Virus genome (UHGV): UHGV-0377831
Strand: one strand, 5' to 3'
DNA length: 32,832 nucleotides
Origin: a virus
Under the pieces are notes generated by a model. The model saw nothing but the letters and a program-made list of their open reading frames with translations, was not told the DNA's origin and did not search any database. The stretch's first letter is position 1. Each line of letters starts with the position of its first letter. Both the position numbers and the translations under genes were made by a program. Positions 17 to 4,960 of this stretch are shown here, in pieces.

Positions 17-172
17 ATGAAGCAGCAAAAGGCGATGTTAATCGCCCTGATCGTCATCTGTTTAACCGTCATAGTGACGGCACTGGTAACGAGGAAAGAC
101 CTCTGCGAGGTACGAATCCGAACCGGCCAGACGGAGGTCGCTGTCTTCACAGCTTACGAACCTGAGGAGTAA
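17..172 (+). CDS. hok: Hok/Gef family type I toxin (51 aa small membrane peptide)
   Basis: ATG at 17 preceded by AAGGAG; translation MKQQKAMLIALIVICLTVIVTALVTRKDLCEVRIRTGQTEVAVFTAYEPEE matches the Hok/RelF family as I recall it. Too short to appear in the ORF track. The cognate mok and sok elements would lie mostly upstream of the window. Confidence 0.88.
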   Translation: MKQQKAMLIALIVICLTVIVTALVTRKDLCEVRIRTGQTEVAVFTAYEPEE

Positions 173-3014: not shown

Positions 3015-3090
3015 GGCCCTTTAGCTCAGTGGTGAGAGCGAGCGACTCATAATCGCCAGGTCGCTGGTTCAAATCCAGCAAGGGCCACCA
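3015..3090 (+). tRNA. tRNA with anticodon CAU, most similar to tRNA-Ile2 (ileX/ileZ type); tRNA-Met not excluded
   Basis: Cloverleaf: acceptor GGCCCTT/AAGGGCC, D-stem GCTC/GAGC, anticodon loop CTCATAA, T-loop TTCAAAT, encoded CCA. Near-identical to E. coli ileX as I recall it. Confidence 0.88.
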
Positions 3091-3097
3091 TCACATA

Positions 3098-3174
3098 CCG
3101 CCATTAGCTCATCAGGAAAGAGCGCCAGCCTTCGAAGCTGGCTGCGCGGGGTTCAAGTCCCCGATGGCGGTCCA
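3098..3174 (+). tRNA. tRNA-Arg (anticodon UCG)
   Basis: Acceptor CCGCCAT/ATGGCGG, anticodon stem CCAGC/GCTGG with loop CTTCGAA, T-arm CGGGG-TTCAAGT-CCCCG, encoded CCA. Confidence 0.85.
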
Positions 3175-3187
3175 TTATCTGCATCAT

Positions 3188-3264
3188 GCGTTGTTAGCTC
3201 AGCCGGACAGAGCAATTGCCTTCTAAGCAATCGGTCACTGGTTCGAATCCAGTACAGCGCGCCA
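3188..3264 (+). tRNA. tRNA-Arg (anticodon UCU, decodes rare AGA/AGG)
   Basis: Acceptor GCGTTGT/ACAGCGC, anticodon stem ATTGC/GCAAT with loop CTTCTAA, T-arm ACTGG-TTCGAAT-CCAGT, encoded CCA. Same Ile/Arg/Arg tRNA trio and position as in Stx-type lambdoid phages. Confidence 0.88.
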
Positions 3265-3371
3265 TATTCATTCTTCCAGATTCCTTTCGGCAGAGCCTTA
3301 TACTGAAATATACCTGGCTCAGGATATTGTTGAAAATATTATATGTTTGTCAAAAATAAAAGTTCTGTTAA

Positions 3372-3728
3372 GTGTTGATTGAGTGTTTGTTATACGGTCT
3401 AATGGTTTTTTCAGCATTAAATATTTATCATTCATATGGTGTGGGTAGAGTGAATATTGATGACGCGTCGGGGTGTTTCATCCTTAGGCAGCGTATTGAT
3501 ATAGTCAATGCAGAACGAGCAAAGGCCTTCAGCCGTTTGACAGTTTTGTTCTGTACTCCTGATCGTCTTTCGGGAAGAGACGTTATTATTCTGAATAGTG
3601 ATGCTATACAGAGGGTTTGCGATGAGTTCATGGTGGCTAATTCAGAATTATTTGCTCTTGTTCAGGAGTACAACAGAATAGCCAGGACCTGTGGTATGGA
3701 TGAACTTCGGATTACTCATCTGGGGTAG
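3372..3728 (+). CDS. Hypothetical protein (cargo ORF downstream of the tRNAs)
   Basis: 118-aa ORF from a GTG (an ATG at 3402 would give 108 aa) in a lower-GC segment; no recognisable domain. Occupies the slot where Stx phages carry stx. Confidence 0.4.
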   Translation: MLIECLLYGLMVFSALNIYHSYGVGRVNIDDASGCFILRQRIDIVNAERAKAFSRLTVLFCTPDRLSGRDVIILNSDAIQRVCDEFMVANSELFALVQEYNRIARTCGMDELRITHLG

Positions 3729-3808
3729 ATACATATCTGGATTATCACCGGTTACGGTAAAAAGTGATTGCTTACTGTTTTTGTGAATGGCATTGCAGCA
3801 GCCGGATA

Positions 3809-3895
3809 ATGTCAGTGCTGGCTGACGGTGTGCTGGTGGCGGGTGTGGTGGTTGCTGCTTTCCCGTTGCTGAAAAAGAAAACGCCAGACTGTTAG
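3809..3895 (+). CDS. Possible 28-aa hydrophobic peptide (MSVLADGVLVAGVVVAAFPLLKKKTPDC)
   Basis: ATG-initiated short ORF encoding one hydrophobic helix with a KKK tail, resembling small membrane toxin peptides. No clear RBS; could be spurious. Confidence 0.2.
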   Translation: MSVLADGVLVAGVVVAAFPLLKKKTPDC

Positions 3896-4120
3896 CCGGG
3901 TATCAGTTAGCGGGAGAAATTTTTAAATACTTCACAATTCAGGCGGTTGACTGTTGTCTGGTTTGCGGGGAGTTTGTTAAAAGAAACTGGCATGGTGAAT
4001 CCCCCTGTGCGGAGGGGCAATCAGCGAGTAGGTATATGGGATAATCGCGGATTCAGGTGCTGGTACTGAATTCACCGGGAGGCACCCGGCACCATGCAAT
4101 GGCACATAGCGCCACTCTCC

Positions 4121-4150
4121 AGCCCCTCTCCGGAGGGGCTGTTTATATTG
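4121..4150 (+). terminator. Strong hairpin with T-rich tail (rho-independent terminator-like)
   Basis: Perfect 8-bp stem AGCCCCTC/GAGGGGCT with loop TCCG, followed by GTTTATATTGATTTTG. A related weaker hairpin (CCCCT...AGGGG) lies at 4002-4017. Confidence 0.55.
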
Positions 4151-4175
4151 ATTTTGTCAGATGTGAGTAAACTCC

Positions 4176-4511
4176 TTATGGACTTTGTTGTTTTAGCCCA
4201 TAAGGACATATTTGCAGAGTGCAACGGTTATTAAAGCATTCATTCAATACGTTATCTGTATTTGTAGGGCATTCCTGGCTGTTTTTGATTAAATTCCAGA
4301 ATGTTTTATTGAATGGTACTACGTTGTAAATGGTTACAGGTAGCACTTTGTTATTGAGCATGATACCTGTGTGAGTCAGTGTAAATATACTTTCAGGAGG
4401 TAAGAAAGCATCCGATTGATACCAGATTATTAATTTTATTTTACTCCATATGACTGAAAAAGATATTCCGCATGATGGCTGGATAACTGTATCAATCACA
4501 ATCCACTTCAT
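4176..4511 (-). CDS. Hypothetical protein, AT-rich cargo gene on the opposite strand to the late operon
   Basis: 111-aa ORF with ATG start and an AAGGAAA RBS about 6 nt upstream on the minus strand; markedly lower GC than the flanks; product not recognised. Confidence 0.5.
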
Positions 4512-4771
4512 TTAGTTTCCTTGTTTATGCCTTGCTGGTGATGTTCTGAAAAGTATAAATGATATTTTTGATTGTAAACCATAGAGCAGAATTATTTTTC
4601 TGATGTTGTTTATTGTTTATTTAAATGCAGGGTGGTTTATATCTCGTCTTGTAGTTTATCCATGCATATCTGCTTGATGATGAAGTTTTTAATTAAGGTA
4701 TGGTTTTGTGTTTTTTCTGTATTACATGTCAGGTATTTTAAAGAATCATTTTTCAGATGGTGGAAAGAACC

Positions 4772-4960
4772 ATGGCATTTAAACACTATGATGTTGTCAG
4801 GGCGGCGTCGCCGTCAGATCTTGCGGAAAAGCTGACACATAAACTGAAAGAGGGCTGGCAGCCGTTTGGTAGTCCGGTGGCCATAACCCCTTATACCCTG
4901 ATGCAGGCGATTGCAGCAGAAGGTGATGTGGTGGTCAGTGGTGCAACTGAGCCGGAGTGA
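4772..4960 (+). CDS. Small DUF1737-like phage protein
   Basis: 62-aa product MAFKHYDVVRAASPSDLAEKLTHKLKEGWQPFG... resembles the DUF1737 domain found alone or at the N-terminus of NanS-p esterases next to the lysis genes of Stx-type prophages (from memory). An alternative ATG lies at 4757. Confidence 0.6.
   Translation: MAFKHYDVVRAASPSDLAEKLTHKLKEGWQPFGSPVAITPYTLMQAIAAEGDVVVSGATEPE

What the first reader, a model, noticed from the sequence alone, without database searches (positions are those of the whole stretch)
3809..4160. Possible 28-aa hydrophobic peptide ORF followed by paired GC hairpins
The ORF encodes MSVLADGVLVAGVVVAAFPLLKKKTPDC, a single hydrophobic helix with a basic tail, the general shape of type I toxin or other small membrane peptides. 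It is followed within 250 bp by two related hairpins (CCCCTGTGCGGAGGGG at 4002-4017 and the perfect 8-bp-stem AGCCCCTCTCCGGAGGGGCT at 4121-4140), the second with a T-rich tail. This may be a small toxin/regulatory-RNA module or the remnant of a larger deleted gene.
Basis: inference. Interest (0 to 1): 0.45.

Follow-up and report, generated by a model that had tools for sequence, protein, structure and literature searches.

The report
Known prophage sRNA beside truncated gene
The two hairpins belong to a known prophage small RNA gene (the STnc100/PasD family) and the short ORF is the leftover half of a known small phage membrane-protein gene (DUF3927/TciB-like), so the finding is real but already described and is not a toxin-antitoxin pair.

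Summary
Both observations are correct at the stated coordinates, and both features are already known.

**The hairpins.** They lie inside one hit to Rfam RF02076 (STnc100), at 3961-4150 on the + strand, 132 bits, E 3.6e-29.
- Hairpin 4002-4017 is helix P2 of a conserved 5' domain. Hairpin 4120-4141 is the terminator.
- My best model is an sRNA gene of about 157 nt: an extended -10 promoter at 3954-3983, a start at G3990, a folded domain at 3990-4097, a single-stranded linker at 4098-4119, and the terminator.
- Relatives (PasD1/2, EcOnc27/sRNA103, 11 copies in EDL933) are expressed; PasD and EcOnc27 were shown to bind or depend on Hfq.

**The ORF.** The 28-aa reading is the C-terminal part of a 43-aa GTG ORF at 3764-3895 (Pfam DUF3927, 92.7 bits), which RefSeq already annotates.
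- Full-length relatives (TciB-like, 50-54 aa) have two transmembrane helices and evolve under purifying selection (dN/dS 0.09-0.31).
- The window copy has lost the first helix through three small deletions.
- DUF3927 lies upstream of only 21 of 143 phage-set copies of the RNA, and of none of 145 copies from other species.

**Toxin-antitoxin reading.** I found no antisense partner, no RNA-mRNA complementarity above shuffles, and no match to a toxin family.

**Possibly new.** A covarying pseudoknot in the 5' domain, freely swapped 3' ends, and tandem domain arrays.

The parts
3737..3757 (+). Remnant of the 3' end of a tciA (TerB-like) gene. It marks the left edge of the conserved tciAB-sRNA block.
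   Evidence: Aligns with the last 21 nt of tciA in phage JLK-2012. Similarity is lost upstream of it.
3764..3895 (+). 43-aa GTG-start ORF of the DUF3927/TciB-like family, truncated so that only the second transmembrane helix remains.
   Evidence: Pfam PF13064 scores 92.7 bits. PHROG 1470 matches only residues 12-40, to profile positions 23-51 of 54. RefSeq annotates it as WP_001438304.1. Relative to JLK-2012 tciB it carries deletions of 11, 4 and 5 nt. Hydropathy shows one hydrophobic peak against two in the full-length protein.
3954..3983 (+). Predicted sigma-70 promoter of the sRNA: -35 TTGTCT at 3954-3959, an 18-nt spacer, TG at 3975-3976, and -10 TAAAAG at 3978-3983.
   Evidence: Read directly from the sequence. 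It scores 9 in my register scan. Promoter-like matches are enriched in this register across 212 relatives: 29% score >=8, against 3-5% at shifted positions. The homologous PasD1 promoter lies in the same register. The promoter is predicted, not shown for this copy.
3990..4097 (+). Conserved 5' domain of the sRNA. P1 pairs 3990-3997 with 4090-4097. A variable region spans 4027-4048. P4 pairs 4049-4056 with 4066-4073. P5 pairs 4075-4079 with 4085-4089. A pseudoknot pairs 4020-4026 with 4058-4064.
   Evidence: Rfam RF02076. My model R1 scores 103.6 bits. Across 142 distinct relatives, 22 of 26 pairs show compensatory changes and 89.8% of cells are paired against 75.9% when shuffled. The pseudoknot is supported by per-sequence complementarity: own 6.2, cross 4.4, 0 of 20000 permutations. 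The RNA-seq 5' end of PasD1 maps to the homologous G of GCAUGGUG.
4098..4119 (+). Variable, mostly single-stranded linker AAUGGCACAUAGCGCCACUCUC. This is the candidate seed region; the C/U-rich CACUCUCC runs into the terminator.
   Evidence: This segment differs completely between family members: 49 tail clusters. In PasD the RIL-seq seed lies in the equivalent 3' segment. The seed role here is inferred.
4120..4151 (+).
   Evidence: The terminator scan finds 9 pairs, 7 of them G-C, and a 4-nt loop. It forms the 3' end of the Rfam alignment. A terminator lies within 100 nt of the core in 99 of 124 relatives.
4176..4511 (-). Context only: an iraM-like anti-adapter gene that converges on the sRNA terminator.
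   Evidence: NCBIfam NF007393 scores 162 bits. RefSeq annotates it.
3015..3264 (+). Context only: a prophage tRNA cluster (Ile2/Met-CAT, Arg-TCG, Arg-TCT) downstream of the Q antiterminator gene at 2050-2871. It places the finding in the late-region 'moron' site.
   Evidence: ARAGORN and Rfam. Pfam Antiterm scores 183.7 bits for 2050-2871.

Best explanation
The window is a lambdoid prophage of E. coli. The finding lies in the 'moron' site between the Q antiterminator/tRNA cluster and the lysis genes, and it covers two separate, already described features.

**1. An sRNA gene of the STnc100/PasD/EcOnc27 family.**
- A weak extended -10 promoter (3954-3983) starts transcription at about G3990.
- The first 108 nt fold into a conserved four-helix domain closed by P1 and locked by a pseudoknot.
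- A 22-nt variable linker follows.
- By analogy with PasD1/2 and EcOnc27, I infer that it binds Hfq and base-pairs with mRNAs through the variable 3' linker.
- I also infer that its terminator stops read-through from moron promoters toward the lysis genes in the lysogen.

**2. A decayed copy of a DUF3927/TciB-like small membrane-protein gene.**
- Full-length relatives have two transmembrane helices. This copy keeps one and can still be read as 43 aa from GTG 3764.
- Its neighbour tciA has been replaced by another phage gene.
- The ORF and the RNA are frequent neighbours in E. coli phages but are not a functional pair.

**Shown versus inferred.** Identity, structure, conservation and gene decay are shown here. 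The promoter and RNA ends are shown for a homologue and predicted for this copy. Hfq dependence, seed and targets are inferred.
For: **RNA identity.** RF02076 at 132.4 bits, E 3.6e-29, and still the only credible hit at E<=5.

**RNA structure.**
- MFE -74.6 kcal/mol, z -2.26.
- Covariation on 142 distinct relatives: 89.8% of cells paired against 75.9% shuffled and <=49.7% in slid controls. 22 of 26 pairs show double changes. The covariation score is 0.397 against 0.144.
- Pseudoknot: 16 classes give own 6.9 against cross 4.1; 86 classes give 6.2 against 4.4. In both tests 0 of 20000 permutations reached the observed value.

**Transcription unit.**
- The promoter is in register.
- The PasD1 5' end, NC_011601:1060260 from Table S6 of PMC8550237, falls on the G of GCAUGGUG, and PasD1 ends after U8.
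- 99 of 124 relatives have a terminator at a median of 30 nt after the core.

**Expression and Hfq binding of relatives.** PMC8550237 (northern blot, Hfq-dependent stability, RIL-seq). PMC4104026 and PMC7873438 (EcOnc27: Hfq-CRAC and northern). PMC5331693 (11 copies in EDL933, one northern-positive).

**ORF.**
- Pfam and PHROG matches and the RefSeq annotation.
- dN/dS of 0.09-0.31 among diverged full-length copies.
- Deletions and a frameshifted stretch relative to JLK-2012 tciB.
- Of 25 copies next to the RNA, 10 are intact, 9 are this truncated type and 6 are otherwise disrupted.

**Independence of the two features.** DUF3927 lies upstream of 21 of 143 phage-set cores and 0 of 145 genome-set cores.
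Against: - No transcript data exist for this exact copy. The start site and 3' end are inferred from a homologue and from sequence.
- The promoter is weak: -35 matches 4 of 6 and -10 matches 4 of 6, plus TGn.
- The U-tail is interrupted (UGUUUAUAUU), which is poor for both termination and Hfq binding.
- The 3' linker differs from PasD and EcOnc27, so targets cannot be transferred to this copy.
- The strong sequence conservation of P2 and P5 across families of Enterobacterales is more than a plain Hfq sRNA needs. The domain may therefore have a function that the base-pairing model does not cover.
- The truncated ORF is very common and nearly invariant (at least 999 contigs), so a residual function of the 43-aa peptide cannot be excluded.
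Confidence: 0.85

Rival explanations
1. Type I toxin-antitoxin module: the hydrophobic peptide is a membrane toxin and the downstream structured RNA, or an antisense RNA, represses its translation.
For: The peptide is small, hydrophobic and has a basic tail. A structured RNA lies next to it. Prophages of this kind do carry type I systems, such as hokD at window 17-172.
Against: - The RNA is on the same strand, downstream and non-overlapping.
- Its duplex energy with the ORF mRNA is no better than shuffles (179 of 300).
- No minus-strand promoter-like site lies across the ORF.
- No antitoxin RNA family appears at E<=5.
- The only Pfam match above its cut-off is DUF3927.
- The family's full-length form is a two-helix protein usually translationally coupled to tciA.
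- The RNA occurs without the ORF in most loci.
Confidence: 0.03
2. The hairpins are only cis-acting: a structured 3' UTR and terminator that ends the upstream moron transcript and insulates the lysis genes, with no trans-acting role.
For: No terminator lies between the ORF stop (3895) and 4120, so transcripts through the ORF must end at the same hairpin. The position between PR' and the lysis genes is where insulation would matter (PMC4104026).
Against: - A promoter sits in fixed register with the first base of P1 in many diverged relatives.
- The PasD1 5' end lies at P1.
- Relatives are discrete Hfq-bound RNAs with many RIL-seq partners (PMC8550237).
- A terminator does not need a covarying 108-nt pseudoknotted domain.
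Confidence: 0.1
3. The conserved 5' domain is the functional unit in its own right. It would be a compact RNA that binds a conserved host or phage factor, or mimics a tRNA acceptor/T-arm stack. The base-pairing 3' end would be an add-on. This reading does not exclude the best explanation.
For: - P2, J1/2 and P5 are conserved in sequence across Enterobacteriaceae, Erwiniaceae and Yersiniaceae, even in copies not selected by the 21-mer search pattern. P1, P4 and the pseudoknot keep only their pairing.
- The 3' ends are swapped freely: 49 tail clusters and 33 terminator arms.
- Domains occur head-to-tail without terminators in Pantoea.
- Domains occur 4-7 nt upstream of a tRNA gene in two loci, one of them Citrobacter braakii.
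- P5 abuts the 3' strand of P1 with no spacer.
- PasD2 is the most abundant partner in CsrA ternary complexes (bioRxiv 10.64898/2026.08.12.744399).
Against: - No partner has been identified.
- PasD1/2 have a partly deleted P5 yet are abundant and active in RIL-seq (PMC8550237).
- The tRNA-leader context is rare: 3 of 304 cores.
- ARAGORN finds no tRNA in the domain, and it hits no Rfam family other than STnc100.
Confidence: 0.25
4. Riboswitch-like attenuator: the 3' arm of P2 (CGGAGGGGC) pairs alternatively with the 5' arm of the terminator (GCCCCUC), so that the folding state of the domain decides between termination and read-through.
For: The 3' arms of P2 and of the terminator are identical over 9 nt in the window. 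About 37 of 123 relatives carry the same terminator type.
Against: Across 33 distinct terminators, complementarity of the terminator's 5' arm to its own core (5.85) equals that to other cores (5.66). Most relatives keep the same P2 with unrelated terminators.
Confidence: 0.03
5. The conserved core is protein-coding on the minus strand. RefSeq's annotation pipeline (PGAP) places a partial 'hypothetical protein' at 3980-4105.
For: The pseudo-CDS call in RefSeq and a 42-aa GTG ORF at 3977-4105 on the minus strand.
Against: - The substitution pattern is compensatory base-pair change, not codon-like.
- Lengths vary by non-multiples of 3 in the middle of the element.
- The CDS is flagged as incomplete.
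Confidence: 0.01

Closest known systems
STnc100 (Rfam RF02076), the Gammaproteobacterial prophage sRNA family
   Same: Full-length match at 132 bits and the same late-region prophage position. It has the same 5' domain and a terminator.
   Different: - The Rfam model starts 29 nt upstream of the likely start site, so it includes promoter DNA.
- It annotates no pseudoknot.
- Some elements that carry the same core fall below its threshold (L005 and L013).
PasD1/PasD2 of EPEC E2348/69 (EcOnc13 homologues), Hfq-dependent sRNAs of 172-173 nt
   Same: - Same promoter register, same 5' end at GCAUGGUG, and the same P1, P2-like hairpin, P4 and pseudoknot.
- A DUF3927 gene lies 41 nt upstream of PasD1.
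- Zhu, Shabalina and Storz (bioRxiv 10.64898/2026.05.13.724894) concluded that PasD and STnc100 share an ancestor.
   Different: - The PasD seed (UGUGAG) and its 3' tail and terminator are absent from the window and from all 125 loci held at that point.
- PasD has a shortened P2 loop and a partly deleted P5.
EcOnc27 / sRNA103, downstream of stx2B in Stx2 phages
   Same: Same family and same site (75 nt after stx2B in Stx2 phages). It is Hfq-bound (PMC4104026, PMC7873438, PMC12711010, PMC12370729).
   Different: - It is paired with a convergent anti-sRNA (AsxR). The window has no AsxR or AgvB hit and instead faces an iraM-like gene.
- The linker sequence differs.
- Similarity of Stx-phage copies to the window is about 79-87% and confined to roughly 3916-4146.
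TciB-like proteins (PHROG 1470; Pfam DUF3927), named after the tciABC locus of phage P1
   Same: The C-terminal helix and basic tail are conserved, and it sits after a tciA remnant.
   Different: - The window copy lacks the first transmembrane helix and the tciA partner.
- The 'colicin/cell division' name is an annotation carried over from P1. I could not read the P1 paper and found no functional test of TciB in the library.
Hok/Sok-type type I toxin-antitoxin systems
   Same: A small hydrophobic peptide gene in a prophage, near a structured RNA.
   Different: There is no overlapping antisense RNA, no fold-back mRNA elements were identified, and no family match was found. The real hokD of this prophage lies at 17-172.

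Membership tests
Rfam RF02076 STnc100 | Covariance-model score at or above the curated gathering score (47 bits) over the full model | tested here: met
   132.4 bits, model positions 1-206 of 206, E 3.6e-29.
Rfam RF02076 STnc100 | The helices of the family are present and supported by covariation | tested here: met
   P1, P2, P4 and P5 are all present in the window. 22 of 26 pairs show compensatory changes across 142 relatives. Caveat: that alignment is fitted to the model. The MAFFT alignment gives 74.3% paired against 69.3% shuffled.
Rfam RF02076 STnc100 | Expressed as a discrete small RNA that binds Hfq | not testable with these tools
   Known only for relatives: PMC5331693, PMC4104026, PMC8550237.
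PasD sRNAs (EPEC) | Shared 5' domain, promoter register and 5' end | tested here: met
   Comparison with NC_011601:1060260-1060432.
PasD sRNAs (EPEC) | The PasD seed and 3' tail (…CCUUGUGAGUUCUGGCUGCGCAUGG…) | tested here: not met
   No match to the probe-complement sequence in any of the 125 loci then held. Direct reading shows that the window tail is unrelated.
Pfam PF13064 DUF3927 / PHROG 1470 TciB-like | Profile score above the curated cut-off | tested here: met
   92.7 bits against a cut-off of 25. PHROG 1470 E 1.5e-11.
Pfam PF13064 DUF3927 / PHROG 1470 TciB-like | Full-length architecture: two hydrophobic helices, about 50-54 aa, start coupled to tciA | tested here: not met
   Only profile positions 23-51 of 54 are matched. 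Hydropathy shows one peak. tciA is absent apart from 21 nt.
Type I toxin-antitoxin | Antitoxin RNA that overlaps the toxin mRNA or is complementary to it | tested here: not met
   Same strand with a 95-nt gap. The duplex is no better than shuffles. No antitoxin family appears.
Type I toxin-antitoxin | Membership of a known toxin family (Hok, Ldr, Ibs, TisB, ShoB and others) | tested here: not met
   The Pfam scan returns only DUF3927 above its cut-off.
Type I toxin-antitoxin | The peptide is toxic when expressed | not testable with these tools
   Needs an expression experiment.
Intrinsic (Rho-independent) terminator | G+C-rich stem-loop followed directly by a T-run | tested here: met
   4120-4141: 9 pairs (7 G-C), 4-nt loop, tail TTTATATTGA. 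The T-run is interrupted, so efficiency is uncertain.
Riboswitch / attenuator | Alternative pairing between the sensor domain and the terminator, conserved across the family | tested here: not met
   Own-core complementarity is 5.85 against 5.66 for other cores, over 33 terminators.

The most novel reading that the evidence does not exclude
The ~108-nt 5' domain (P1-P2-P4-P5 four-way junction plus the J2/3-L4 pseudoknot) may be an autonomous structured phage RNA module with its own molecular partner.

- Prophages of Enterobacterales would reuse it as the 5' end of different transcripts: sRNAs with exchangeable seed and terminator cassettes, multi-domain arrays, and occasionally tRNA leaders.
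- STnc100/PasD would then be a structured-RNA class whose core function is still unknown, rather than only a family of Hfq base-pairing sRNAs.
- The pseudoknot is absent from the Rfam consensus structure for RF02076 and is not mentioned in the 2026 Pas paper, which I searched for the word.
Probability: 0.25. Interest if true: 0.6.

Novelty: already known. Interest (0 to 1): 0.25.

Why it matters
For the finding as written, little changes. The hairpins are an Rfam family present in more than half of complete E. coli genomes, and the ORF is an annotated DUF family member.

It does matter for annotation:
- RefSeq does not annotate this RNA and instead places a probably spurious minus-strand pseudo-CDS over it.
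- The Rfam model appears to include promoter DNA.
- The 28-aa reading is not the unit under selection.

The broader point is that this family sits next to stx2 and other virulence morons and is highly expressed, yet its function is still unknown. Three features give concrete handles for experiments on what the domain does:
- a covarying pseudoknot;
- near-invariant P2 and P5 across Enterobacterales;
- cassette-like exchange of the 3' seed and terminator.

Tried and rejected
1. **Type I toxin-antitoxin.** Rejected on several grounds:
   - The sRNA's duplex energy with the ORF mRNA is no better than shuffles.
   - No minus-strand promoter lies across the ORF.
   - Sub-threshold Rfam hits include no antitoxin.
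   - The only Pfam match above its cut-off is DUF3927.
2. **PasD identity.** The probe-complement pattern was absent from all loci. The E2348/69 hit H61 turned out to be an IS-truncated copy of the window type, not PasD.
3. **Convergent anti-sRNA partner (AsxR/AgvB), as in Stx phages.** None in the window.
4. **Riboswitch-type antiterminator.** No covariation between terminator arm and core.
5. **tRNA-leader role as a general feature.** Only 3 of 304 cores.
6. **Column-based count of the pseudoknot on the MAFFT alignment.** It gave only 41.9% paired because the loops are misaligned. I replaced it with per-sequence complementarity and permutation tests. A first cross-comparison without class de-duplication was not clean: 6.9 against 5.4.
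7. **Two regex attempts to trim the cores.** Both mis-set some 5' ends and were corrected.
8. **The P1 genome paper for tciB.** It could not be fetched, and a search for DUF3927/TciB gave nothing functional.
9. **Mapping the EDL933 STnc100_4 coordinates onto NZ_CP008957.** This failed because the paper used a different assembly.
Full report
**Context.** The window is 100% identical over its first 12 kb to prophages in several complete E. coli genomes. RefSeq annotation of one of them gives this gene order:
- hokD (17-172), DUF968, RusA, Q-type antiterminator (2050-2871; Pfam Antiterm 183.7 bits);
- three tRNAs (3015-3264);
- a DUF3927 family protein (3764-3895);
- a minus-strand pseudo-CDS (3980-4105);
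- iraM on the minus strand (4176-4511);
- then holin, lysozyme and terminase.

The finding therefore sits in the late-region 'moron' site of a lambdoid prophage. That is the place where Stx phages carry stx and where Tree et al. found clusters of Hfq-binding sRNAs (PMC4104026).

**Observation check.**
- The ORF 3809-3895 translates as stated, but the frame is open from GTG 3764, giving 43 aa.
- Hairpin 1 is a 5-bp stem, 4002-4006 with 4013-4017.
- Hairpin 2 extends to 9 bp at 4120-4141 and is the best terminator-like site in a 2-kb scan. Its T-tail is interrupted.
- The hairpins are indeed related: their 3' arms share CGGAGGGGC.

**What the hairpins are.** Rfam places a single full-length hit of RF02076 (STnc100) at 3961-4150 on the + strand, at 132.4 bits against a gathering score of 47 and E 3.6e-29. 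It contains both hairpins. At E<=5 nothing else credible appears in 3300-4800: no Sok, AsxR or AgvB. The literature describes this family as follows.
- It has 11 expressed copies in EDL933, one confirmed by northern blot (PMC5331693).
- The copy 75 nt downstream of stx2B overlaps the Hfq-bound sRNA EcOnc27/sRNA103 (PMC4104026, PMC7873438, PMC12711010, PMC12370729).
- The EPEC sRNAs PasD1/PasD2 were recently shown to be structural relatives (bioRxiv 10.64898/2026.05.13.724894; PMC8550237).
- The 421-bp region 3740-4160 occurs in 2860 of 5426 complete E. coli genomes, with up to 12 places per genome.

**Anatomy of the RNA.** I collected relatives with the 21-mer CACCGGGAGGCACCCGGCACC. This gave 120 viral loci, yielding 123 unique elements, and 120 loci from one-genome-per-species contigs spanning Enterobacteriaceae, Erwiniaceae and Yersiniaceae.

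The conserved part is a domain of about 108 nt:
- P1: 3990-3997 with 4090-4097.
- J1/2: AAU.
- A variable insert.
- P4: 4049-4056 with 4066-4073.
- P5: 4075-4079 with 4085-4089, which abuts the 3' strand of P1.

On a covariance-model alignment of 142 distinct relatives (model R1):
- 89.8% of cells pair, against 75.9% in shuffles and at most 49.7% in slid controls.
- 22 of 26 pairs show changes on both sides.
- The covariation score is 0.397 against 0.144.

That alignment is fitted to the structure. The unfitted MAFFT alignment still shows P1 at 90.6% paired, with GC:38 and AU:36 at one pair.

The segment just after P2 (AUCAGCG, 4020-4026) also pairs with the P4 loop (UGCUGGU, 4058-4064), forming an H-type pseudoknot.
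- Across relatives these two segments change together, for example CCAGUC/GACUGG, AAGGUUG/CAACCUU, AAUGACUG/UGGUCAUU and CUAGGC/GUCUAG.
- Own-partner complementarity exceeds cross-partner complementarity: 6.9 against 4.1 over 16 classes, and 6.2 against 4.4 over 86 classes. In both tests 0 of 20000 permutations reached the observed sum.
- Rfam's consensus has no pseudoknot, and the 2026 Pas paper does not mention one.

**Ends of the RNA.**
- Many diverged relatives carry TTGACx-17-TAAATT-like promoters at a fixed distance from P1. In a register scan, 29% of 212 unique upstream regions score >=8, against 3-5% at shifted positions.
- The window has TTGTCT (3954-3959), an 18-nt spacer, and TGtTAAAAG (3975-3983). 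This predicts a start at G3990, the first base of P1.
- The RNA-seq-estimated 5' end of PasD1 (NC_011601:1060260; Table S6 of PMC8550237) falls on the homologous G of GCAUGGUG, and PasD1 ends after a U8 tail.
- The Rfam hit start at 3961 therefore probably includes promoter DNA.
- Downstream of the core the family is cassette-like. There are 49 unrelated tail clusters. 99 of 124 members have an intrinsic terminator within 100 nt (median 30 nt), with 33 distinct stems.
- The window's tail is AAUGGCACAUAGCGCCACUCUC followed by the 4120-4141 terminator. In PasD the RIL-seq seed lies in this 3' segment, so I infer that the window's seed lies in 4098-4119.

**The ORF.**
- The 43-aa product matches Pfam DUF3927 at 92.7 bits. 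The exact sequence with an M start is on at least 999 public contigs under that name.
- In phage JLK-2012 the homologous gene is annotated tciB. It encodes 54 aa with two hydrophobic helices and overlaps the stop codon of the TerB-like gene tciA.
- PHROG 1470 (TciB-like) matches the window protein only at residues 12-40, corresponding to profile positions 23-51.
- The DNA alignment shows deletions of 11, 4 and 5 nt relative to JLK-2012. These remove the ATG and put the first-helix codons out of frame (…AYCFCEWH…). Only 21 nt of tciA survive, at 3737-3757.
- Hydropathy shows one peak instead of two.
- Among diverged full-length copies dN/dS is 0.09-0.31, so the family is genuinely coding.
- Of 25 copies next to the RNA, only 10 are intact. 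Nine are the window's truncated type and six carry other frameshifts or stops.
The conserved unit is the larger gene, not the 28-aa ORF.

**Are ORF and RNA a module?**
- They are frequent neighbours in E. coli phages. Examples are JLK-2012 and E2348/69 PP4, where a 52-aa DUF3927 gene ends 41 nt before PasD1.
- However, DUF3927 lies upstream of only 21 of 143 phage-set cores and none of 145 cores from other species.
- In Stx2 phages the upstream gene is stx2B.
- The RNA is on the same strand and does not overlap the ORF. Its complementarity to the ORF mRNA is at chance level.
- The toxin-antitoxin reading is therefore not supported.
- What can be said is that any transcript through the ORF must end at the sRNA's terminator, because no other terminator intervenes.

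**Mechanism (best estimate).**
- Shown: family membership, the fold including the pseudoknot, the modular 3' ends, and the decay of the ORF.
- Shown for homologues only: expression, 5' and 3' ends, Hfq dependence, and trans targets.
- Inferred for this copy: transcription from 3990 to about 4147, Hfq-assisted base pairing through 4098-4119, and a cis role of the terminator in keeping moron-promoter transcription out of the lysis genes. The cis role follows from established knowledge of Q antitermination and morons.

I tested and rejected a riboswitch-like use of the P2/terminator similarity.

**What remains odd.**
- P2, J1/2 and P5 are nearly invariant in sequence across three families of Enterobacterales, even in 37 copies found by the model rather than by the 21-mer. 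P1, P4 and the pseudoknot conserve only their pairing.
- Domains occur head-to-tail without terminators in Pantoea.
- A domain occasionally sits 4-7 nt upstream of a tRNA gene.
- PasD2 is the top partner in CsrA ternary complexes (bioRxiv 10.64898/2026.08.12.744399).

This suggests that the domain has a partner or function beyond holding a seed. I give that reading about 25% and could not test it.

**Verdict.** The structural details of the 5' domain are the only part that may be new.

Noticed in passing
window 17-172 (+): Identical RefSeq prophages annotate this as hokD, a genuine type I toxin. The window begins too late to include its Sok partner, and Rfam found no sok hit.
   Followed up: partly
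window 3372-3728 (+): A 118-aa ORF (likely start M11 at 3402) matches PHROG 2873 (unknown function) at 233 bits. It is not annotated in identical RefSeq genomes. It occupies the place where tciA sits in related phages.
   Followed up: partly
window 3980-4105 (-): RefSeq's annotation pipeline (PGAP) places a partial 'hypothetical protein' pseudo-CDS exactly over the conserved RNA core. The compensatory substitution pattern indicates RNA, so the CDS call is probably spurious. The sRNA itself is not annotated.
   Followed up: partly
window 3932-4098: Mosaic joints coincide with the conserved RNA core. Similarity to mEp460-type phages runs up to 4098, and similarity to vB_EcoS-640R1-type phages starts at 3932. 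The core looks like a recombination crossover point between modules.
   Followed up: no
window 4176-4511 (-) and 4172-4207: An iraM-like anti-adapter gene converges on the sRNA terminator. A 9-bp inverted repeat, TCCTTATGG/CCATAAGGA, lies at its 3' end. In Stx phages this position holds the anti-sRNA AsxR instead.
   Followed up: partly
window 4010-4018 and 4131-4139: The 3' arm of P2 and the 3' arm of the terminator share a 9-nt identity, CGGAGGGGC. About 37 of 123 relatives share this terminator type. No family-wide antiterminator signal was found, so the identity is unexplained.
   Followed up: partly
L125 3440-3640 (E. coli E2348/69, NZ_LT827011.1): A window-type copy of the sRNA is cut within hairpin 1 by an ISEc13 (IS4-like) insertion. 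The remaining 142 nt are 98.6% identical to the window.
   Followed up: yes
L183 6650-7020 (-), L160 949-1989 (-), L014 2265-3380 (-), L064 4349-5513 (+): Tandem arrays of the domain hold up to seven copies in about 1 kb on a Pantoea plasmid. In L183 three domains follow each other with 12-21 nt between them and no terminator, which implies multi-domain transcripts.
   Followed up: partly
L197 4620-4824 (+) (Citrobacter braakii); also L206: The domain ends 4-7 nt before a tRNA-Met(CAT) gene, as if it were the leader of a prophage tRNA transcript. This is rare: 3 of 304 cores.
   Followed up: yes
L013 5465-5560 (-), L064 5220-5316 (+): Rfam isrI (an Hfq-binding RNA) hits lie next to STnc100-type cores. 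Cores in L005 and L013 that carry the exact 21-mer fall below the RF02076 threshold, so the Rfam model under-covers the family.
   Followed up: no
L138, L168, L175, L194 (genome contigs): The exact 21-mer also appears on contigs labelled Prolixibacteraceae (388 bp), Streptomyces, Mucilaginibacter and Vagococcus. Contamination by enterobacterial DNA is the likely cause.
   Followed up: no
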